From IMG/VR virus record IMGVR_UViG_2778261105_000011: 41,989 bases of DNA. One strand, 5' to 3'. This document shows positions 2,386 through 37,086 of this stretch, one piece after another. The position numbers were made by a program, and so were the translations under genes. This DNA comes from a virus. Its lineage: Duplodnaviria > Heunggongvirae > Uroviricota > Caudoviricetes. Each line of letters begins with the position of its first letter. Within the stretch, counting starts at the first letter, position 1. The notes beneath the pieces are model-generated. The model ran no database searches, was not told the origin of the DNA, and saw nothing but the letters and a program-made list of their open reading frames with translations.

Positions 2386-3000
2386 TCAAAGTGGAGGATC
2401 TGGTAGCGGCATCCAGTGTGACGGCTCACATACCCCTTCAACACCATTCATGTAAAAGAATTGAAATAACCCTTTACCTTTGTGAAACCCTACCATCTGC
2501 TCTTTTGTGTCTGAGCAATAAACCAAAACATCTTCTTCGTTTGGCATTCGCTCACTACAGCTTATCCAACCATCCGGAGTTACCGGATAGTTGCCGGGTT
2601 CTTTAATGTGCAAGCGAGGCTCACCATCTTTTGGCTCAGGCCACTGGCGCTCCATGTTGATCTTCAATTTATCTTCCATAGCAGCGGTAATTTCAGCATC
2701 GCTGATGCCAGCACGGCGCTGTGCATCCCACAACAGAAACTGCATATCAGCCCACTCGCTAAGATCGTCTGGTTCGGCTGCGGCTTCCAGTGCCTCTTTT
2801 GAGAGATGTTTCAGCTGACCAATGGGGCCAACGCAGCCAAATGTGGAGTCAGACCATTTGGCATGCTCGTGGCGAATCTGTTCGCGTTCCAGTGATGCCA
2901 GTGCAATTCGTGCCAGTTCCATTTGTTCGCCACGGGTAAGCCCGTTATCAAGCGGATTTTTAATGAATAATTCGATACGTTCTTTGGTTATAGCGCTCAT
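2386..3000 (-). CDS. Hypothetical early protein, C-terminal DUF551-like region
   Basis: Start ATG at 3000 preceded by AGGAGAG; C-terminal W..C.ERMP...VLVY...HWMPLP pattern typical of a phage early-protein domain. Track ORF 2386..3030. Confidence 0.45.
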   Translation of the reverse strand: MSAITKERIELFIKNPLDNGLTRGEQMELARIALASLEREQIRHEHAKWSDSTFGCVGPIGQLKHLSKEALEAAAEPDDLSEWADMQFLLWDAQRRAGISDAEITAAMEDKLKINMERQWPEPKDGEPRLHIKEPGNYPVTPDGWISCSERMPNEEDVLVYCSDTKEQMVGFHKGKGLFQFFYMNGVEGVCEPSHWMPLPDPPL

Positions 3001-3001
3001 A

Positions 3002-3838
3002 TCACTCTCCTTTGATGCGAATGCCAGCAAGCCAGTTTCTTATGCCGATATATTCAGCGTTCCTGAAACCGCTTTTTACATATATAAATGGCAAGCGAAG
3101 ATTGTGACCATTGGCTGCCAGGTAGTCTTTACAACCCTGTTCGGTGAAACAGCAGGTAACGAATTCATCAATATCTTTCACAGCAACGCGCCGCCATTTT
3201 TCTGGTGGCTCTCGAAAGTTTTCGTGAAGTAGTTCGAGACGACGACTTTGGCGTTTATTGGCTTCATTGCCATCTTCATCAACCCAGACAATCCGGTCAT
3301 AGTCATAATCAGCATCAACAACGATTTCGCGCTTTTGATACACACAAAACATGGGATCTGACGTTATTCGATTGTCCTGTGTCCGAATATTTTCACCGAT
3401 GATGCCAAACGAATCTGGTGCAGATTTTGTCTGCATCTCTCCGATACGTTCAGCCATCGCAGCACACTCTTCAAAGTTGCTTAATGCTTTTCGCTCCCAT
3501 TCAGCGCATTGTTTTTCCAGTTCTGCAATGCGCTTACCTCCATCCGCGATTACTCCATCGTAATACTCACGCTGCTCGTTGAGTTTTGATTTTGCTGCTT
3601 CAAGCTCAACACGCAGCTTCCCTACCGTTAGCGCAATTTCCTCGTTCTCCTGGTCGCGGGATTTGATGTATTGCTGGTTTCTTTCCCGTTCATCCAGCAG
3701 CGCCAGCACAATGTGTGGCGTTATCAGGGACTCAAATTCGGCAACAGCTTGCTCGCCTCGCTTGTAATTCTTAATCCCACCTAAATCTTTCGCGTTCTGC
3801 GCCGCCTCACGCAGTGCCTGATAGTTTATTTTGGTCAT
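3002..3838 (-). CDS. Hypothetical early protein with central coiled coil (Ead/Ea22-like)
   Basis: 278 aa ORF in the leftward operon, abutting neighbours with 1-2 bp spacing; family name is a guess from memory. Confidence 0.4.
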   Translation of the reverse strand: MTKINYQALREAAQNAKDLGGIKNYKRGEQAVAEFESLITPHIVLALLDERERNQQYIKSRDQENEEIALTVGKLRVELEAAKSKLNEQREYYDGVIADGGKRIAELEKQCAEWERKALSNFEECAAMAERIGEMQTKSAPDSFGIIGENIRTQDNRITSDPMFCVYQKREIVVDADYDYDRIVWVDEDGNEANKRQSRRLELLHENFREPPEKWRRVAVKDIDEFVTCCFTEQGCKDYLAANGHNLRLPFIYVKSGFRNAEYIGIRNWLAGIRIKGE

Positions 3839-3839
3839 A

Positions 3840-4139
3840 TCACATCACCCTGAAGCCGTTGCATTTACGTAAAAAATCGCAGATATAGCCCTTCATTTTT
3901 TCATGCCAATCTCGATCATTCCCATTGCACCAACCATCAGGTGGAGTCCAGTTTTCTATCAGAGCAGCCATTTTCTTTGCTTTCGCCGGAGTAGCTGTTG
4001 CGGTATCGCAGTAATGACGAGTGTCAACCAACGCATCCATACCATCGATATCAAGTACGCAAAACCATGTGTGATTCGGAATTCCTACAGGTGGTATTTG
4101 TTGCCCACGTCGACGTTTATCAATAAGATATACACTCAC
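3840..4139 (-). CDS. Hypothetical early protein
   Basis: Likely GTG start at 4139 preceded by AAGGAGG; 4 bp overlap with the stop of the upstream gene. Track ORF 3840..4160. Confidence 0.35.
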
Positions 4140-4303
4140 TGCTTGCCTCCTTTGCGCCACATCGCATTCAGATATTTGTTTTGATTTACTGACGGAAAAG
4201 AATTTCTCTTAAGCAATTCCTCTCTCGATGGCATTGGCTTTACGCGTTGGCGAATAATCATTTCTGCCGGAAGAATGCCGGGATTGTATGCAAGTCCTCT
4301 CAT
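4136..4303 (-). CDS. Hypothetical small protein
   Basis: ATG at 4303 preceded by GAGGAA; track ORF 4136..4336 is the extended form. Confidence 0.3.
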
Positions 4304-4633: not shown

Positions 4634-5017
4634 TTAGAAGGGAATTGAATCGTCGTATTCAGGATTATTTTGATGATTGCTACTTTGCTGCTGTTGGCTG
4701 TTTCCTGAAGTTGCAAATCCAATCTTTGCATTCAGTAATTCAAGAGTGATTGATTGACCATTTTGCCCCTGATAAACATCAACCCTGATGTTTTCTCCGG
4801 TAATTTCCACAATGCCACCTTCAACAAGAACACTACGGTAGTAATCCGCTTGCGCTCCCGGCTTGGCAAATACAACGGCGCTGTAGTTTGTCCATTCTTT
4901 CTTTTTTGTCTGGCGATCGTAATACTGAACGCCAGCACGGATGTTGAATCCGATATTTTCCCCGGCCTGAAACTCTCTTGCGGGCTTGTTTAGTCTTACA
5001 GTAATCGAATGTGCCAT
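4634..5017 (-). CDS. SSB-like single-strand DNA-binding protein with acidic C-terminal tail (ends ...EYDDSIPF)
   Basis: 127 aa; AAGGAG Shine-Dalgarno; start overlaps the erf stop (TAATG); C-terminus resembles the SSB DDDIPF tail; Q/N-rich linker before the tail. Confidence 0.55.
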   Translation of the reverse strand: MAHSITVRLNKPAREFQAGENIGFNIRAGVQYYDRQTKKKEWTNYSAVVFAKPGAQADYYRSVLVEGGIVEITGENIRVDVYQGQNGQSITLELLNAKIGFATSGNSQQQQSSNHQNNPEYDDSIPF

Positions 5018-5622
5018 TAAGCAGCCGCTCCTTCTAATTCGTCTCGTCTGATGTTGTAAACGTCCTGCGCTTTGTGCTGCTCAGGTGTGCCTTCGAGCAT
5101 CTTCCACGCTTTGGCGAACGCCTGTTTAAGCTCTTCTACGGTGTTTTTCTGCATTGCTGCGTCAGTGAATGCCTTTAAAACCTGTTCAGGTGTAGGTGAT
5201 GGCTTTGATTGCTTTGCTGCTGCGTTCTGCTGATGTTTATGCTCGTCTGTATCTGCATCTTTCGCATCATCTATGCCGAACAAACCATTGAGGCAATACT
5301 TGCGTGCATAAGAGCTTGTAGCTCCAGTAACTTGTGCAGAATCCATTCCTTTCTTGCTTTCTTCCTCTCGTGCAAGGGCGGTTGCCGTATGACTGTTTTC
5401 GCCATCGGTAATAGTTGCCGTGGCTTTCACGTAATACCGATCACCAATCAACACAACTTCATCGCTGATTGATAAAAACAGGCCATTCAGTAGCGGCTTA
5501 ACGCCTTCAAGAATGTCTTCGCAGCTTCTGTATTTATATTTTCCGAATGAGTTGTACTGATTCTTTGGCGCGTTCAGATTCTCCTGAATGGCTGCCAGTC
5601 TTGCGTAAAATTCTTTGCTCAT
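5017..5622 (-). CDS. erf: Erf single-strand annealing recombinase (P22 Erf homolog)
   Basis: Translation MSKEFYARLAAIQENLNAPKNQYNSFGKYKYRSCEDILEGVKPLL... closely matches remembered P22 Erf; start taken at the internal ATG (5622) of track ORF 5017..5652. Confidence 0.85.
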   Translation of the reverse strand: MSKEFYARLAAIQENLNAPKNQYNSFGKYKYRSCEDILEGVKPLLNGLFLSISDEVVLIGDRYYVKATATITDGENSHTATALAREEESKKGMDSAQVTGATSSYARKYCLNGLFGIDDAKDADTDEHKHQQNAAAKQSKPSPTPEQVLKAFTDAAMQKNTVEELKQAFAKAWKMLEGTPEQHKAQDVYNIRRDELEGAAA

Positions 5623-5882: not shown

Positions 5883-6031
5883 TTCCTGCGATACCACGGA
5901 AGATTGATAGCTGATTTCATCGCTTTATTTGCTTCAAGCCACATTTTGGAATCACCAATAAATCTGGCTATTACTGCTTTGTTCTGTGCAGCACGAAGCA
6001 TCTGGTGATTGATGGCTATTTCATTGCGCAT
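5879..6031 (-). CDS. Kil-like small early protein (50 aa)
   Basis: ORF MRNEIAINHQMLRAAQNKAVIARF... directly downstream of cIII, with coupled start/stop overlaps on both sides; assignment is by position only. Confidence 0.3.
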   Translation of the reverse strand: MRNEIAINHQMLRAAQNKAVIARFIGDSKMWLEANKAMKSAINLPWYRRK

Positions 6032-6147
6032 AATAAGACCTCAACTCTTTTCCATCCGTCACGTAATTTACGGGTGATTCGTTCAAGTAAAGATTCATTT
6101 AATTGGAAGGCACCCATGCGAGCGCCTCCCGCGATTGCGTAAATCAT
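6016..6147 (-). CDS. cIII: CIII-like protein (FtsH inhibitor, lysogeny establishment)
   Basis: 43 aa ORF MIYAIAGGARMGAFQLNESLLERITRKLRDGWKRVEVLLCAMK; the ESLLERITRKLRDGWKR core matches lambda CIII. Not in the supplied track. Confidence 0.6.
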   Translation of the reverse strand: MIYAIAGGARMGAFQLNESLLERITRKLRDGWKRVEVLLCAMK

Positions 6148-6171
6148 GGGTGGTTCCTTATGTTGGTTTTA

Positions 6172-7140
6172 TTAGTAGGTTATTTTTGTTGCGAATACTT
6201 CGCCTTTTACGATGGCTGTTATGATATTTTTAGCAACATCTTCTGATGCGCCAACCTTGATAAGGTCAGCAAGTATTTTGTTATTTACTTCTTTCCGGTG
6301 AGCTTTATCCTTTGCTCTACGCTCTTCTTCGTCCTTGATTCTTTTTTCTTCTGCTATTCTGGCTTGCTCTTTTGCTTCAGCCTCACGACGGATTCGTTCA
6401 GCCTCCTCCTGTGCTTTTCTGCGTTCTGCTTCAATTGCTGCCTGCTTTTCTCTTTCAGCTCGTTCTGCTGCCTCTTTTGCTTCGCGCTGTGCTCGTTGCT
6501 CGGCTTCAATGCGTTCACGCTCTGCACGTTCCGCTGCGGCCTTAGCTTCTGCTTCTCGCCTTGCTGCTGCTTCAATTTCGGCTTTTGCCTTTGCTTCGGC
6601 TTCTGCTCTGGCTTTCTCTTCAGCTTCTCTTTTTAAGCGTTCTTCATGCTCTCGCTTTTCCTGCTCCGCTTTGAGTCTTGCCTCTTCTCTTTGGCGGTCA
6701 AATTCGCGATCCATCAAAATCGCTATTTCATGGTCAGACTCAATTTGCTTTGCGAGAGCTTCAGCTGCTGCCTTAGCTTCTTCTTCGGCTTTAATCCGCG
6801 CCTGTTCTTCCTCATAATCAGTAAGAGGCTGGCGTACCTTGGCTTTCAGCTCATCAAGGCGATCACGCACTGTCTTGCGGTTGGCATCAATTAGCTTTGG
6901 AATTTCCTTCAGTTCAGCAACAAGGTCTTTGCCAAGACCATCGAGATATGTTTTCGTCTGCGCAACTTTATACGCCAGAGAAGCGATCTCCTTTCTGCCC
7001 TTTGCCGTTGCGATATCAGGCACAAAGGACATAACTTCACGTTCAACCTTTTGAAGGATTTCTTCAATCTGGTCGGCAGACTGAAATACAGTCATTGCAT
7101 TTGCTTTTTCAATAACAACTAAATCTGTTACTTCACTCAT
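6172..7140 (-). CDS. Hypothetical protein with very long E/R/K/A-rich predicted single alpha-helix / coiled-coil segment
   Basis: Start ATG at 7140 preceded by GGAGGA; about 150 aa of KAEEEAKAAAE / RREAEAK-type repeats; plus-strand ORFs 6298..6894 are low-complexity shadows of this gene. Confidence 0.5.
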   Translation of the reverse strand: MSEVTDLVVIEKANAMTVFQSADQIEEILQKVEREVMSFVPDIATAKGRKEIASLAYKVAQTKTYLDGLGKDLVAELKEIPKLIDANRKTVRDRLDELKAKVRQPLTDYEEEQARIKAEEEAKAAAEALAKQIESDHEIAILMDREFDRQREEARLKAEQEKREHEERLKREAEEKARAEAEAKAKAEIEAAARREAEAKAAAERAERERIEAEQRAQREAKEAAERAEREKQAAIEAERRKAQEEAERIRREAEAKEQARIAEEKRIKDEEERRAKDKAHRKEVNNKILADLIKVGASEDVAKNIITAIVKGEVFATKITY

Positions 7141-7152
7141 ATATCCTCCGTC

Positions 7153-7179
7153 AAAAAAATTGCCCTCACACTGGAGGGC
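7153..7179 (-). terminator. Rho-independent terminator on minus strand (GCCCTC-CAGTGT-GAGGGC then AATTTTTTT)
   Basis: Read from the reverse complement; sits between the 3-gene cassette and the coiled-coil gene. Confidence 0.55.
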
Positions 7180-7283
7180 GAAGAAGATTTCCAATAATCA
7201 GAACAAGTCGGCTCCTGTTTAGTTACGAGCGACATTGCTCCGTGTATTCACTCGTTGGAATGAATACACAGTGCTTATTCGTA

Positions 7284-7754
7284 CTAATAAAATACCCAAT
7301 TTTCTGTTTCTTGGTTGTGTCCAAAGTTATATTCAATATCTGGTGTTGATGTATCAATATTCTTCATCCCATCAACAAGAGTTGATACAACAGCCAAATC
7401 TTGTTTGATTCTCATTAAATGGTATTTCTTCCGGCGCAATAAACTCTCAATGGCAAGTTTCTTCGTTGGGAATGCAAAAGATCTTTCTGCATTTTTTGCT
7501 ACTTTCTTAATTGCATATCTATTTCTCCTTTGTTTCCATTCCTGTAACCACTGATTTGGTGCTGGTTTAAAATTAACAATCCAATGCGCAGGAACCAACC
7601 ATGCATAATGCTCTGTCTGATGAAAAGCTATATATTGAAGTGCGAATATTTTGATTCCATCTTCTTCAACTGTCGCTTGGAATCTCCAGAAAACAGGCAT
7701 TCCCTCATGTTCAGTTTCTGATTCAGGAAAAGGTACGCTCCATGATTTTGTCAT
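7284..7754 (-). CDS. Hypothetical protein (156 aa), third gene of cassette downstream of N
   Basis: ORF with ATG start, tightly spaced after the stop of the upstream gene; AT-rich codon usage relative to neighbours; no recognised domain. Confidence 0.5.
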   Translation of the reverse strand: MTKSWSVPFPESETEHEGMPVFWRFQATVEEDGIKIFALQYIAFHQTEHYAWLVPAHWIVNFKPAPNQWLQEWKQRRNRYAIKKVAKNAERSFAFPTKKLAIESLLRRKKYHLMRIKQDLAVVSTLVDGMKNIDTSTPDIEYNFGHNQETENWVFY

Positions 7755-7757
7755 ATA

Positions 7758-8087
7758 TTACTCATCTCCAAGGGCTTTGCTGATTGCTGACTGTGCTTTC
7801 GATACTTCATCAGGATAATGGTCATTCCAGTTTTGCTTGTATGCCTTGTTTAGCATTGCTTGCAGGGCATTTAAAAGGTCTGGTGCTGCCGCTATTAGAT
7901 GGGCATTAGCGATTGTTTTATCGAAAGAAGTCTGATTGCATCCTCCAATTATTGAAGGAGTGCTCTGGAGATATGCAATTTCATGCAGTGACTCAGATGA
8001 ATTAATTTCTATGCAAGCCACGCTTGCGTCACTTGCGCTGCTGTGAGAAAAACTCCATTTACCAGGAGTACCATTAAACTCTTTCAT
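7758..8087 (-). CDS. Hypothetical protein (109 aa), second gene of cassette downstream of N
   Basis: ATG at 8087 preceded by GAGGTG; the track start at 8093 is a GTG codon. Confidence 0.5.
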   Translation of the reverse strand: MKEFNGTPGKWSFSHSSASDASVACIEINSSESLHEIAYLQSTPSIIGGCNQTSFDKTIANAHLIAAAPDLLNALQAMLNKAYKQNWNDHYPDEVSKAQSAISKALGDE

Positions 8088-8124
8088 CTTCACCTCTGTT
8101 GTTTATGCCAAAAATAAAGGCCGA

Positions 8125-8748
8125 CTATGCGGCCTCGGAAGGAAGTCCAATCATCTTATTCAAATCTTCTACCCGTAAAGCAGGAAGTGCTGTACTTGCT
8201 TTATCTGCTTCTTTTGGTAGCAATTCTTTGCTTTCAGGCCAAACCTCAATAAGTCGCTTAACTGTTGTGACTGAGTTCAAAGCAGCCCATACATTTGATT
8301 CGATATCCTTTTTCTTGGCTTCAAGTTTTTGTTGCAATGCGCAGATTTCATCAAACCTTTTTGTTATTTCGTGTTCTGCGCTAAACATGCATTTATCTTC
8401 GTTCGGAGTAGGGAGCAATATATCTTCGCCGTTGCCGTCTTTCCCATATGAAAGCCATCCAACCCTTCTGCCAGATACAGTCAGATAAATTGAAATAGAA
8501 CGAACATCGTATGAGTAAAATGAACATCCCATCTTTCCAAGTTCTTCACTTATAGCTACCAACTTGGATGATAACTGATCCACTTCCTCAGTTTTCTTTT
8601 TACCGCCAAACGCAATAACTCTGGCGTCAAGTGCAAGCTGGTTCTTTAACTTTGTTACTTCTTCAAGTTCAGTGAAAACCCCAGACTTAATTAAAGCGTT
8701 ACGAGCGATTTCCTCTTTCATTCTCGTAGTTAAGCGGATTGATGACAT
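8125..8748 (-). CDS. Hypothetical protein (207 aa), first gene of cassette immediately downstream of N
   Basis: ATG at 8748 preceded by GAGAGGAA; track ORF 8125..8808 is an extension that would overlap N. No recognised domain. Confidence 0.5.
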   Translation of the reverse strand: MSSIRLTTRMKEEIARNALIKSGVFTELEEVTKLKNQLALDARVIAFGGKKKTEEVDQLSSKLVAISEELGKMGCSFYSYDVRSISIYLTVSGRRVGWLSYGKDGNGEDILLPTPNEDKCMFSAEHEITKRFDEICALQQKLEAKKKDIESNVWAALNSVTTVKRLIEVWPESKELLPKEADKASTALPALRVEDLNKMIGLPSEAA

Positions 8749-8759
8749 ATTAATTCCTC

Positions 8760-9059
8760 TCAAATAAGTGGTTTGCTGCCTAATTTCATTTTCTGGCGAC
8801 CAACACAAGTCACACCCATTTCACTGCGTGGCTTGCGGTAGTAAATACGATTCTGTTTACGCTCGACTTCTTCTGCCTTCTTGCAGCGAAGGCTTCCGAG
8901 TGATGCTGCTTTATCTGCTCTGACGCAACCAGAGAGCTTTAGCGCAATCTTTCGCGCCAGTCGCTGCTCTTGCATTGCCTGTTCACGTTGAGCCTGTCTG
9001 CGTGCTCTGCGGCGATTTCTGGCGTTATCGTCAGCCAGATATGTAATGACTACTGTCAT
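8760..9059 (-). CDS. N: N-type transcription antitermination protein
   Basis: C-terminus ...RIYYRKPRSEMGVTCVGRQKMKLGSKPLI parallels lambda N ...RTWYSKPGERGITCSGRQKIKGKSIPLI; N-terminal arginine-rich motif NARNRRRARRQAQ; ATG at 9059 with AGGAGG Shine-Dalgarno. Track ORF 8760..9131 is over-extended. Confidence 0.8.
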   Translation of the reverse strand: MTVVITYLADDNARNRRRARRQAQREQAMQEQRLARKIALKLSGCVRADKAASLGSLRCKKAEEVERKQNRIYYRKPRSEMGVTCVGRQKMKLGSKPLI

Positions 9060-9099
9060 GTTGACCTCCTGGAAGGTACACATCCTTGTGTGTCGATGA

Positions 9100-9219
9100 T
9101 TATTTGTTTTTGCGTTCCCACATCCAGTCATCTACTTCAGACCAGATAGTGAAACCGAAGCAGATGGCGAATGTGGTAACTAAACCACCGAGAATTGGGT
9201 TGGTCATGATGTCTAACAT
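9100..9219 (-). CDS. Small hydrophobic peptide (39 aa, one predicted transmembrane helix) between nutL and N
   Basis: ORF MLDIMTNPILGGLVTTFAICFGFTIWSEVDDWMWERKNK; ATG at 9219 preceded by GAGGA at 7 nt; not in the supplied track. Confidence 0.35.
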   Translation of the reverse strand: MLDIMTNPILGGLVTTFAICFGFTIWSEVDDWMWERKNK

Positions 9220-9389
9220 TTTCTGTTCCTCAGATGATTAGCTTTGGTGGTGTGGTAGGTGGGAGACCCATTTCGCCCCGCTTCGTCCGACTTCAATTCG
9301 GCAATAGTCCCGCATGCCTCGCCGCTTTACGTGCGGCATATTCCCGTCCATGAACCCTTCACCACACCCCAAAGCCAACTACTCTTTGG

Positions 9390-9431
9390 TTCCCGCATTT
9401 CGGCGGGACAATCCCATCAATGTTAAAGAGC
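9390..9431 (-). promoter_or_regulatory. nutL site: boxA-like GCTCTTTAAC followed by boxB hairpin CCCGC-CGAAAU-GCGGG
   Basis: The same 19 nt boxB sequence occurs in the opposite orientation at nutR (10546-10565); boxA resembles the CGCTCTTTA consensus. Confidence 0.6.
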
Positions 9432-9469
9432 CTGCCAATCTGTTCCGTTTGGCTACCAGCGTCCTGCTG

Positions 9470-9560
9470 ATGGCTTAAATTTAAGATCTCTTTAATTAAT
9501 GGTCAAGAGTATTTTTGAAGAAAACTTAAATTTTCTTTCGTAACTTAAGTTTGGCTTTGA
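9470..9560 (-). promoter_or_regulatory. pL / OL operator region
   Basis: Several TTAAG/CTTAA-containing operator-like half-site repeats similar to those in the OR region; located between nutL and the 3' end of the repressor gene. Confidence 0.45.
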
Positions 9561-9573
9561 TTTTTAAAGGAAA

Positions 9574-9598
9574 TAAAAAAAAGGGGCGAATGCCCCCT
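9574..9598 (-). terminator. Rho-independent terminator immediately after the repressor gene (GGGGGC-ATTC-GCCCC then T8)
   Basis: Read from the reverse complement of 9574-9598. Confidence 0.6.
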
Positions 9599-10248
9599 TA
9601 TGGAAGGTTTGCTAGTTTTGCATCGACAACTACGCCGATGATTTTGCAGTTTCCGTTGATCTCGATCATCGGATATTGTGGGTTAAGTGGTTTTAGAAAC
9701 TTCCTGCCTGCATCAATAACTAACTTCTTGAAAGTTGCCTCGTTTTCTCCTTCGAGCTTTGCAACTACCAGTTTCCCGTTACGCGGCTCTACTTCAGGAT
9801 CGACAAGTATTATCATTCCTTCAGGGATACTGAGACCGGCCGGAGCCGTCATTGAGTCTCCCTTCACGTCCAACCAAAACGAATCTTCTGAACAGTCTAC
9901 GGTTGTATCGTACCAGTTATCTATTGCACGCTTATGATATGGTTCTACAGCTTCCATCCAGCATCCTGCGCTCACCCAGCTAATCAGAGGGAATGACCCT
10001 CTTGGATCATGCCTACTGTGATAGGCAATGTTTGAAAGACTTTCCTCTCCTTTCATCAGATAGTCAGGGGAACACTTCAACGCATTAGCCAGGGCGAGAA
10101 GATTCTCTCCATTTGGCTCTGTCTCAGAGCGTTCCCACTGAGATATGGCAACATTAGACACGCCGACCATCTTTCCAAGTGCGGCCTGCCTGATCTTGAG
10201 TTCTTTTCTCCGAGCGCGAATGCGCTCTCCCATCAATTGAGTTTTCAT
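9598..10248 (-). CDS. c2: P22 c2-type immunity repressor (HTH N-terminal domain, LexA-like S24 peptidase C-terminal domain)
   Basis: 216 aa translation is near-identical over its length to remembered P22 C2 (...GERIRARRK.LKIRQAALGKMVGVSNVAISQWERSETEPNGENLLAL...); no Shine-Dalgarno before the ATG, consistent with a leaderless pRM transcript. Confidence 0.95.
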   Translation of the reverse strand: MKTQLMGERIRARRKELKIRQAALGKMVGVSNVAISQWERSETEPNGENLLALANALKCSPDYLMKGEESLSNIAYHSRHDPRGSFPLISWVSAGCWMEAVEPYHKRAIDNWYDTTVDCSEDSFWLDVKGDSMTAPAGLSIPEGMIILVDPEVEPRNGKLVVAKLEGENEATFKKLVIDAGRKFLKPLNPQYPMIEINGNCKIIGVVVDAKLANLP

Positions 10249-10250
10249 AG

Positions 10251-10314
10251 TTAAGACATCTTAAATAAACTTGACTTAAGATTCCTTTAGTGGATAATTT
10301 AAGTGTTCTTTAAT
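10251..10314. promoter_or_regulatory. OR operator region with pR (TTGACT 10271-10276, GATAAT 10293-10298) and divergent pRM
   Basis: Three 14-18 bp partially palindromic sites of the TTAAGA...TCTTAA type between the repressor and cro genes. Confidence 0.7.
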
Positions 10315-10328
10315 TTCGGAGCGAGTCT

Positions 10329-10514
10329 ATGTACAAGAAAGATGTTATCGACCACTTCGGAACCCAGCGTGCTGTAGCTAAAGCGTTAGGCATTAGCGAC
10401 GCAGCAGTCTCTCAGTGGAAGGAAGTCATCCCAGAGAAAGACGCCTATCGACTGGAAGTCGTTACAGCTGGCGCCCTGAAGTATCAAGAAAGCGCTTACC
10501 GCAAAGCGGCATAA
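10329..10514 (+). CDS. cro: Cro repressor (P22 Cro)
   Basis: 61 aa translation MYKKDVIDHFGTQRAVAKALGISDAAVSQWKEVIPEKDAYRLE... matches remembered P22 Cro almost exactly. Confidence 0.95.
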   Translation: MYKKDVIDHFGTQRAVAKALGISDAAVSQWKEVIPEKDAYRLEVVTAGALKYQESAYRKAA

Positions 10515-37018: not shown

Positions 37019-37022
37019 AGTT

Positions 37023-37054
37023 GAAGCCCCAACTGCGGGAACAGTCAGGGCTTC
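37023..37054. terminator. arc-ant intergenic hairpin (GAAGCCC ... GGGCUUC), likely terminator for arc and for an antisense sar-like RNA
   Basis: Read directly; position corresponds to the bidirectional terminator of the P22 sar/arc region. Confidence 0.45.
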
Positions 37055-37086
37055 GGTATCAACAAATCGGATTAGGAAATATTGAC

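What the first reader, a model, noticed from the sequence alone, without database searches (positions are those of the whole stretch)
7153..8748. Three-gene cassette of unknown function inserted directly downstream of N in the pL operon
Three tightly linked ORFs (207, 109 and 156 aa at 8125-8748, 7758-8087 and 7284-7754) with translational coupling follow N. I do not recognise any of them as P22 or lambda early genes such as ral, sieB, c3 or kil. The block is more AT-rich than its neighbours and is followed by its own rho-independent terminator (7153-7179) and a second hairpin (7243-7270). The N-proximal position in lambdoid phages is a known hotspot for accessory genes such as superinfection exclusion, restriction alleviation and anti-defence functions. 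This makes the cassette a candidate for a novel defence or counter-defence module expressed early or from the prophage.
Basis: partly seen in the sequence, partly recalled or inferred. Interest (0 to 1): 0.7.

Follow-up and report, generated by a model that had tools for sequence, protein, structure and literature searches.

The report
Three unrelated accessory genes after N
The three genes after N are real early phage genes of unknown function, but they are three independently shuffled, already catalogued modules in a known variable slot of lambda-like phages, not one new defence cassette.

Summary
Three ORFs lie at the stated coordinates, they are AT-rich, and both the terminator and the hairpin are real.

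It splits the block into g1 and g2-g3.

The "three-gene cassette" reading does not hold.
- **g1** is a Pfam Nmad5 protein. It is 94-99% identical to genes in HK542, mEp235, HK244 and Stx phages.
- **g2** belongs to a widespread small phage family (phrog_1273, PF27050).
- **g3** is HK97 gp45 / 933W L0079.

Among 71 phage contigs with a 96-100% identical N gene, the N-to-kil distance ranges from 525 to 2781 nt. g1, g2 and g3 occur alone, in pairs, in either order, or not at all, at about the frequencies expected for independent assortment.

No promoter-like site lies inside the block, and no protein matches a known defence model. No solved structure resembles g1 or g3, though the g3 model is weak.

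Most likely these are separate, dispensable pL-operon early genes. g1 would be made together with N, and g2 and g3 only after antitermination. They probably act by binding rather than catalysis. Their functions remain unknown. The finding is ordinary and of low to moderate interest.

The parts
8760..9059 (-). N-like antiterminator gene (99 aa). It is the upstream anchor of the variable slot.
   Evidence: phrog_271 'anti-termination protein N-like', E 3.5e-37. Weak Pfam N_peptide hit. The C-terminus is 57% identical to lambda N.
8125..8748 (-). g1: 207-aa protein of the Nmad5 family (PF18757). It is the first gene after N and lies upstream of the first intrinsic terminator.
8117..8136 (-). Terminator-like hairpin (GGCCG-CATAGT-CGGCC) followed by TTTATTTTT. 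It overlaps the g1 stop codon and is the first terminator downstream of pL.
   Evidence: Terminator scan. Fold energy -11 kcal/mol, z = -1.5. It lies within the conserved 82-nt joint 8054-8135.
7758..8087 (-). g2: 109-aa member of a small phage protein family (phrog_1273, precomputed PF27050). The family has conserved ends and a swapped middle.
   Evidence: phrog_1273, E 3.2e-23. 235 homologues, all carrying PF27050. The alignment shows a conserved MKEFKGTPGKW, LIAAAPDLLEALQ and AISKALG with variable segments between them. Found in many unrelated phages, almost always annotated 'hypothetical protein'.
7284..7754 (-). g3: 156-aa homologue of HK97 gp45 / 933W L0079, with a basic central region.
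7240..7271 (-). Strong 14-bp hairpin just after the g3 stop codon, with no T-run.
   Evidence: -18.8 kcal/mol, z = -6.0, and 0 of 200 shuffles fold as well. Conserved together with the following terminator in HK542, HK97 and Dewey.
7153..7179 (-). Intrinsic terminator (GCCCTC-CAGTGT-GAGGGC plus AATTTTTTT) that closes the variable slot.
   Evidence: Terminator scan. Fold energy -11.4 kcal/mol, z = -2.5. The homologous position is annotated as a putative terminator in the HK97 record.
9478..9506 (-). pL-like promoter (TTGACC, 17-nt spacer, TAAATT). It is the only promoter-like site on the coding strand upstream of the block.
   Evidence: Promoter scan of 6000-10400. It lies between the P22 C2-like repressor gene (92% identity) and N.

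Best explanation
The block is a stack of three independent mosaic modules in the hypervariable N-to-cIII/kil slot of the pL operon. The host is a P22-like E. coli phage or prophage.

**Shown here**
- Each gene belongs to its own widespread phage protein family.
- Each is found without the others.
- Homology breaks at conserved joints. Compared with HK542, the window carries an extra g2-g3 segment (about 7275-8094). Compared with HK97, it carries an extra g1-terminator-g2 segment (about 7783-8758).

**Inferred from the layout**
- All three genes are transcribed only from pL, during infection or induction.
- g1 lies before the first intrinsic terminator, so it would be made together with N as an immediate-early product.
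- g2 and g3 lie between two terminators, so they would need N antitermination.
- None is expected to be expressed from the repressed prophage.

**Inferred, weaker**
- These are dispensable accessory proteins that act by binding host or phage macromolecules rather than by catalysis.
- g1 is a helical-bundle protein with a small beta-sheet. Its relatives in lytic phages sit in replication, recombination and nucleotide-metabolism modules. It most plausibly modulates DNA metabolism or an early host response.
- g3 has a strongly basic centre and may bind nucleic acid.
- g2 is a small acidic modular protein.
- Their actual targets are unknown.
For: **Identity of the genes**
- g1 is Nmad5.
- g3 is HK97 gp45 / 933W L0079.
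- g2 is phrog_1273 / PF27050.

**Independence**
- In 71 IMG/VR loci with a 96-100% identical N gene: 27 have none of the three, 17 have g3 only, 12 have g2 only, 9 have g1 only, 3 have g3+g2, 3 have g1+g3, and 0 have all three.
- These counts are close to the products of the single-gene frequencies.
- Both orders, g3-g2 and g2-g3, occur. One locus has N-g1-g3-g2.
- HK542 has g1 only, HK97 has g3 only, STEC384 has g1-g3, ST131 prophages have g1 - a short g2 variant - g3, and Dewey has g3-g2.
- The joints are mapped.
- In 5426 complete E. coli genomes, g1 is present in 209, g3 in 593, and this g2 allele in 10.

**Expression logic**
- The only coding-strand promoter-like site is pL. Terminators lie at 8136-8117 and 7179-7162.
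- In a Serratia prophage, the g1 homologue is the first called gene after the repressor.

**Non-enzymatic nature**
- No PDB sequence homologues exist for any of the three.

**Context of g1 relatives**
- Pollock gp49 lies between thymidylate synthase and the exonuclease, primase, Sak4 and SSB genes. YuA gp15 lies beside a thymidylate-synthase-like gene.
Against: - No experiment bears on function, so the functional part is inference from position, fold class and charge.
- The promoter scan covers only sigma-70 consensus sites. Weak or activator-dependent promoters, and Rho-dependent terminators, would be missed.
- The hairpin at 8136-8117 is only modestly more stable than shuffled sequence (z = -1.5).
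- g2 and g3 are separated by 3 nt here, in ST131 prophages and in L090. A functional g2-g3 link in that arrangement is therefore not excluded.
- The g3 model is weak (pLDDT 62), so 'no structural homologue' is not informative for g3.
- The IMG/VR samples are the best 80 matches per query and are dominated by E. coli prophages.
Confidence: 0.7

Rival explanations
1. The three genes form one co-functional defence or counter-defence cassette, whose products work together and are inherited as a unit.
For: - The genes are adjacent, on the same strand and compact, with only 3 nt between g2 and g3.
- The slot is known to hold ral, sieB and 17 in lambda and P22.
- The same order, g1-g2-g3, recurs in ST131 prophages with a different g2 allele.
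Against: - The genes assort independently in loci with a near-identical N gene. Each occurs alone, and the order is variable.
- A terminator separates g1 from g2.
- Only 1 of 5426 complete E. coli genomes carries this block.
- There are no PADLOC hits.
Confidence: 0.06
2. g1 is an enzyme or essential cofactor of a DNA or nucleotide modification pathway, as the family name suggests. The block would then modify phage DNA to evade restriction.
For: - The Pfam and RefSeq name is 'nucleotide modification associated domain 5'.
- Relatives in YuA and Pollock lie next to thymidylate-synthase-like genes.
- A Dhillonvirus study treats nmad5 as a DNA modification gene (PMC11846954).
Against: - As far as I know, the family name rests on gene neighbourhood only.
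- No kinase, thymidylate synthase or transferase partner lies near g1 in the window.
- A confident g1 model has no enzyme-like structural match.
- The invariant residues are mostly hydrophobic, Gly, Pro or basic, not an obvious catalytic set.
- Deleting nmad5 in Dhillonvirus did not change Tmn sensitivity.
Confidence: 0.1
3. One or more of the genes is a moron-type, prophage-expressed superinfection exclusion or abortive-infection gene that protects the lysogen.
For: - The slot holds sieB in lambda and P22.
- The block is AT-rich, as morons often are.
- Each module carries a terminator.
Against: - No sigma-70-like promoter lies on the coding strand within 7153-8760.
- All three genes are co-oriented with pL, downstream of the repressed promoter.
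- There is no PADLOC match.
- None of the proteins has a membrane segment; all have negative GRAVY scores.
Confidence: 0.1
4. g2 and g3 form a functional pair, for example a modulator and an effector, in the arrangement seen here. g1 is unrelated to them.
For: - The 3-nt spacing and shared reading frame recur in the window, in ST131 prophages and in L090.
- g2 co-occurs with g3 in 13 of 80 g3-anchored loci.
Against: - 63 of 80 g3-anchored loci lack g2. In 11 of the 13 loci where both occur, the order is reversed, and where examined (L091, L092, Dewey) the terminator-bearing joint lies between them.
- Observed g2+g3 co-occurrence (3 of 71) is no higher than the roughly 4.8 expected by chance.
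- g2 also occurs in unrelated phages that show no g3 nearby.
Confidence: 0.08

Closest known systems
HK97 gene 45 (gp45) / phage 933W L0079
   Same: g3 is about 97% identical at the DNA level. In those phages the gene also sits directly after N and is followed by the same hairpin-plus-terminator segment.
   Different: In HK97 and 933W the gene stands alone after N. Here g1 and g2 lie between N and it. No function has been reported in the papers I could search.
HK542_033 / HK244 / mEp235 / Stx-phage Nmad5-family gene (Pfam PF18757)
   Same: g1 is 94-99% identical. In those phages it also lies 11 nt after N and ends in the same terminator hairpin.
   Different: In HK542 the g1 terminator is followed at once by the hairpin-terminator segment. 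Here 820 bp (g2-g3) are inserted between them.
Nmad5 of Dhillonvirus (Tmn-escape locus) and of N4-like and YuA-like lytic phages
   Same: Same Pfam family and same predicted fold. The C-terminal signature T-x-K-[KR]-L-I-x-x-W-P-E is shared.
   Different: The Dhillonvirus protein matches only g1 residues 103-203 and has a different N-terminal part. It lies in the head-gene region. The N4-like and YuA-like copies lie in replication and nucleotide modules. The link to Tmn was shown only for Dhillonvirus (PMC11846954).
Lambda ral-orf28-sieB-ea10 and P22 ral-orf78-orf87-17-sieB/esc (N-to-cIII accessory interval)
   Same: Same genomic slot, same orientation for the pL-transcribed genes, and a terminator at the end of the slot (P22 gene 17).
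   Different: There is no sequence similarity to any of these proteins. No opposite-strand sieB-like gene with its own promoter is present in the window.

Membership tests
Pfam PF18757 Nmad5 (g1) | Full-length match to the family HMM above the gathering score | tested here: met
   240.5 bits against a cut-off of 27. Residues 4-203 match model positions 1-206 of 206.
Pfam PF18757 Nmad5 (g1) | Same predicted fold as other family members | tested here: met
   Foldseek against BFVD finds phage proteins named Nmad5 or 'nucleotide modification associated', E 1e-12 to 1e-4, TM up to 0.76.
Pfam PF18757 Nmad5 (g1) | Neighbourhood of nucleotide or DNA modification genes, which is the basis of the family name | tested here: not met
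   In the window the neighbours are N, g2 and g3. No thymidylate synthase, kinase or transferase lies nearby. The association is seen in YuA and Pollock.
Pfam PF18757 Nmad5 (g1) | Biochemical nucleotide-modifying activity | not testable with these tools
HK97 gp45 family, phrog_1636 (g3) | Full-length profile match and near-identity to HK97 gp45 | tested here: met
   phrog_1636, E 7e-112, 1-156 of 156. 97% DNA identity to HK97 gene 45.
phrog_1273 / PF27050 (g2) | Profile match | tested here: met
   phrog_1273, E 3.2e-23. All 120 listed homologues carry a precomputed PF27050 hit. That model is absent from the local Pfam copy, so it was not scored directly.
Known anti-phage defence systems (PADLOC-DB v2) | Match of any of the three proteins to a defence-system model | tested here: not met
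   No hit for g1 or g2. The only hit for g3 is a chance-level E 0.018 to Cas1.
Multi-gene system (operon inherited as a unit, for example a toxin-antitoxin or three-component defence system) | The genes co-occur and keep their order across genomes | tested here: not met
   0 of 71 N-anchored loci carry all three. Singles and pairs occur at chance frequencies, and the order varies.
Moron (autonomously expressed prophage gene) | Own promoter upstream and terminator downstream | tested here: inconclusive
   Terminators are present. No sigma-70-like promoter lies on the coding strand inside the block, but the scan detects consensus-like sites only.
Lambda/P22 early-left accessory proteins (Ral, SieB, Esc, gp17, Ea10) | Sequence similarity | tested here: not met
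   tblastn and profile searches of the lambda and P22 early-left regions gave nothing below E 0.6 for g1-g3.

The most novel reading that the evidence does not exclude
At least one of the three is a new counter-defence or host-takeover factor. g1 is the most likely candidate, because it is co-transcribed with N before any terminator. Its conserved C-terminal motif (TVKRLIEVWPE...LNKMIGLP) would engage a host protein and could be what Tmn-type immunity senses. Lambdoid phages carrying g1 would then differ from g1-free siblings in sensitivity to specific E. coli defence systems.
Probability: 0.2. Interest if true: 0.55.

Novelty: already known. Interest (0 to 1): 0.25.

Why it matters
The genes are common. 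Among 5426 complete E. coli genomes, g3 is in about 11% and g1 in about 4%, including Stx-converting phages and ST131 prophages. They are among the first phage genes transcribed, yet none has a known function.

The useful results are negative and organisational:
- The genes should be studied one at a time, not as a system.
- The name 'nucleotide modification protein' for g1 rests on gene neighbourhoods in other phages and does not fit this context.
- Natural sibling prophages share a near-identical N gene but carry every combination of g1, g2 and g3. This offers a ready-made comparison set for testing phenotypes.

Tried and rejected
- **Sequence libraries.** Pfam, NCBIfam and PADLOC scans gave no functional hit for g2 or g3, and only the Nmad5 name for g1.
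- **PDB sequence search.** Profile searches for all three gave only chance coiled-coil matches, E >= 0.4.
- **Fusion trick.** Folding g1 and g2 in one job was abandoned because MAFFT misaligned the mixed homologue set.
- **Distant g3 relatives.** They hit only unknown-function PHROGs and no Pfam family.
- **Literature.** Searches on HK97 gp45, 933W L0079, lambdoid anti-defence and hotspot surveys found nothing on these genes. The original Nmad paper is not in the library.
- **Rfam.** No RNA family was found in or near the block.
- **Spurious ORFs.** This idea was rejected on conservation.
- **Toxin-antitoxin pair for g2-g3.** This was rejected on co-occurrence.

Full report
**Setting.** The window is a P22-like E. 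coli phage or prophage.
- It carries a sar RNA at 37019-37085.
- Its repressor (9598-10248, minus strand) is 92% identical to P22 C2.
- Its nearest relatives are phiv205-1, CUS-3 and HK620, which match in mosaic patches.
- The early-left operon reads on the minus strand in this order:
  - a pL-like promoter at 9506-9478;
  - a leader of about 420 nt;
  - N at 8760-9059 (phrog_271);
  - the three ORFs of the finding;
  - a 322-aa coiled-coil 'TolA-like' ORF at 6172-7140;
  - cIII, kil, erf, abc2 and Ead/Ea22 genes.

**Observation check.**
- They are AT-rich: 40.4%, 42.1% and 36.1% GC, against 46.6% for the window.
- The terminator at 7179-7162 plus its T-run is real (-11.4 kcal/mol, z = -2.5).
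- The hairpin at about 7240-7271 is real: 14 bp, -18.8 kcal/mol, z = -6.0, with no T-run.
Its loop contains the g1 stop codon.
- The gaps are 11 nt (N to g1), 37 nt with that terminator (g1 to g2), and 3 nt (g2 to g3). Translational coupling is therefore plausible only for g2 to g3.

**What the genes are.**
- **g1** is a full-length member of Pfam PF18757, Nmad5 (240.5 bits). RefSeq names it 'Nmad5 family putative nucleotide modification protein'. Genes 94-99% identical sit right after N in HK542, HK244, mEp235 and many Stx phages.
- **g3** is HK97 gp45 / 933W L0079, about 97% identical at the DNA level. It belongs to phrog_1636. A library-wide profile search found a wider family of 87 representatives, each about 140-150 aa. 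All fall in unknown-function PHROGs and none in Pfam.
- **g2** belongs to phrog_1273 and to precomputed PF27050. Members share MKEFKGTPGKW, a central LIAAAPDLLEALQ helix and a terminal AISKALG. The segments between these are swapped. The family occurs in many unrelated phages, almost always annotated as hypothetical.
- None of the three resembles lambda or P22 Ral, SieB, Esc, gp17, Ea10, cIII or Kil. None matches PADLOC or NCBIfam models or any PDB sequence.

**Are they a unit? No.**
- I fetched 80 IMG/VR loci anchored on each gene and scored their ORFs with profiles of the three families.
  - Of 80 g1 loci, 12 also have g2, 8 have g3 and none has both.
  - Of 80 g3 loci, 4 have g1 and 13 have g2. 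Eleven of those 13 are in the order g3-g2 and two in the order g2-g3.
  - One g3 locus has all three, in the order N-g1-g3-g2.
- A less biased sample was anchored on N (96-100% identical N gene, 71 loci with enough downstream sequence).
  - 27 loci had none of the three, 17 had g3 only, 12 had g2 only and 9 had g1 only.
  - 3 had g3+g2, 3 had g1+g3 and none had all three.
  - From the single-gene frequencies one expects about 3.9 loci with g1+g3, 4.8 with g2+g3, 2.5 with g1+g2 and 0.8 with all three. There is no positive association.
  - The N-to-kil distance ranges from 525 to 2781 nt. The window, at 2729 nt, is near the top of that range.
- Named examples cover every arrangement:

| Source | Arrangement |
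|---|---|
| HK542 | g1 only |
| HK97 | g3 only |
| STEC384 | g1-g3 |
| ST131 prophages | g1 - 83-aa g2 variant - g3 |
| Dewey | g3-g2 |
| A prophage in a strain labelled DH5alpha | g2 with other neighbours |
| DP051 | the same block as the window |

- Among 5426 complete E. coli genomes, g1 is in 209, g3 in 593 and this g2 allele in 10. The whole block is in one genome.

**Mosaic joints.**
- HK542 matches window 8095-8840 and then jumps to 7156-7274. Relative to HK542, g2-g3 (about 820 bp) is therefore extra sequence between two tandem terminators.
- HK97 matches 7154-7782 and then the end of N. Relative to HK97, g1-terminator-g2 is extra.
- The 82-nt piece 8054-8135 holds the g1 stop codon, the terminator, a ribosome-binding site and the first 34 nt of g2. 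It recurs at 95% identity downstream of g3 in Dewey, L091 and L092. It behaves as a conserved joint in front of g2-family genes.
- The hairpin-plus-terminator segment 7156-7281 follows whichever gene is last in the slot.

**Expression (inferred).**
- The only sigma-70-like site on the coding strand between 10400 and 6000 is pL.
- No terminator lies between pL and the end of g1, so g1 should be co-transcribed with N before antitermination.
- g2 and g3 lie between the two terminators and should depend on N.
- In a Serratia prophage, the g1 homologue is the first called gene after the repressor.
- This layout argues for early lytic expression and against expression from the repressed prophage.
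- Limits: the scans use consensus sequences only and cannot see Rho-dependent termination.

**Structure and mechanism.**
- **g1** folds confidently (pLDDT 85.5, pTM 0.70). The model has three long N-terminal helices, a small beta-sheet (residues 86-122), a long helix (127-158) and short C-terminal helices.
  - Foldseek against viral models finds only other Nmad5 proteins.
  - The invariant residues do not form an obvious catalytic set.
  - The family name comes from gene neighbourhoods (my knowledge of Iyer et al. 2013; the paper was not available).
  - That association is visible in YuA and Pollock, where the homologue lies next to thymidylate-synthase-like genes and to replication and recombination genes. 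It is absent here.
- **The only experimental link for g1's family** is a Dhillonvirus study (PMC11846954). A K-to-E change in nmad5 escaped the Tmn defence system, deletion did not, and the gene could not be cloned. If the numbering follows the 254-aa Pandora71 protein, that residue aligns with g1 R165 in the signature TVKRLIEVWPE motif. This mapping is tentative.
- **g3** has a basic centre and a weak model (pLDDT 62). **g2** is small and acidic (pI 5.2).
- My best reading is three separate binding-type accessory proteins: g1 linked to DNA metabolism or an early host response, and g3 possibly binding nucleic acid. These functional statements are inference.

**Verdict.**
- The sequence features are real.
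- The hotspot idea is right, and lambda and P22 hold ral, sieB and 17 in the same slot.
- The 'novel three-gene cassette' is not supported. It is a rare stacking of three known, independently assorting, functionally uncharacterised early genes.
- A counter-defence role for any one of them remains possible but untested.

Noticed in passing
window 7156-7281 (- strand): A perfect 14-bp hairpin (7240-7271, -18.8 kcal/mol, z = -6) lies next to the terminator at 7179-7162. Together they form a segment of about 125 nt that is 97% conserved after whichever gene is last in the N-proximal slot (HK542, HK97, Dewey). It may be an RNA stability or processing element.
   Followed up: partly
window 9060-9478 (- strand): The leader between pL and N is about 420 nt long. 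It holds a boxA-like GGCTCTTTAACA (9432-9421), a hairpin CCCGC-CGAAAU-GCGGG (9407-9392) that is a candidate nutL boxB, and a 39-aa hydrophobic ORF at 9100-9219 matching phrog_7482 (E 8e-25).
   Followed up: no
window 6172-7140 (- strand): A 322-aa coiled-coil protein rich in Glu, Ala, Lys and Arg, annotated 'TolA' in related records (phrog_1376). It is itself present or absent among loci with a near-identical N gene, so it is a fourth variable module of the same slot.
   Followed up: partly
window 8054-8135: An 82-nt joint holding the g1 stop codon, a terminator, a ribosome-binding site and the first 34 nt of g2. It recurs at 95% identity downstream of g3 in phage Dewey and in loci L091 and L092. 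The sequences just upstream of the g1 and g3 start codons also resemble each other (GAGAGGAATTAATATG and GAGATGAGTAATATATG). These look like conserved recombination joints.
   Followed up: partly
window 9598-10248 and 37019-37085: The repressor is 92% identical to P22 C2, and a sar antisense RNA (Rfam RF00262, 71.6 bits) marks an immI region. This E. coli phage therefore carries a P22-type dual immunity system.
   Followed up: no
window 2386-3030 (- strand): A fusion of a dATP/dGTP pyrophosphohydrolase domain (PF04447) with DUF551 lies in the ea region. Nearby are DUF7739 (3840-4160) and an Ead/Ea22-like protein (3002-3838).
   Followed up: no
L332 (phage Pollock) 3998-4630; L330 (YuA) 4710-5270; L331 (Pandora71) 3533-4297: Nmad5 relatives in lytic phages occupy three different contexts. 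In N4-like Pollock the gene lies between thymidylate synthase and the exonuclease, primase, Sak4 and SSB genes. In YuA it lies beside a thymidylate-synthase-like gene. In a Dhillonvirus it is inserted in the opposite orientation within the head-gene region.
   Followed up: partly
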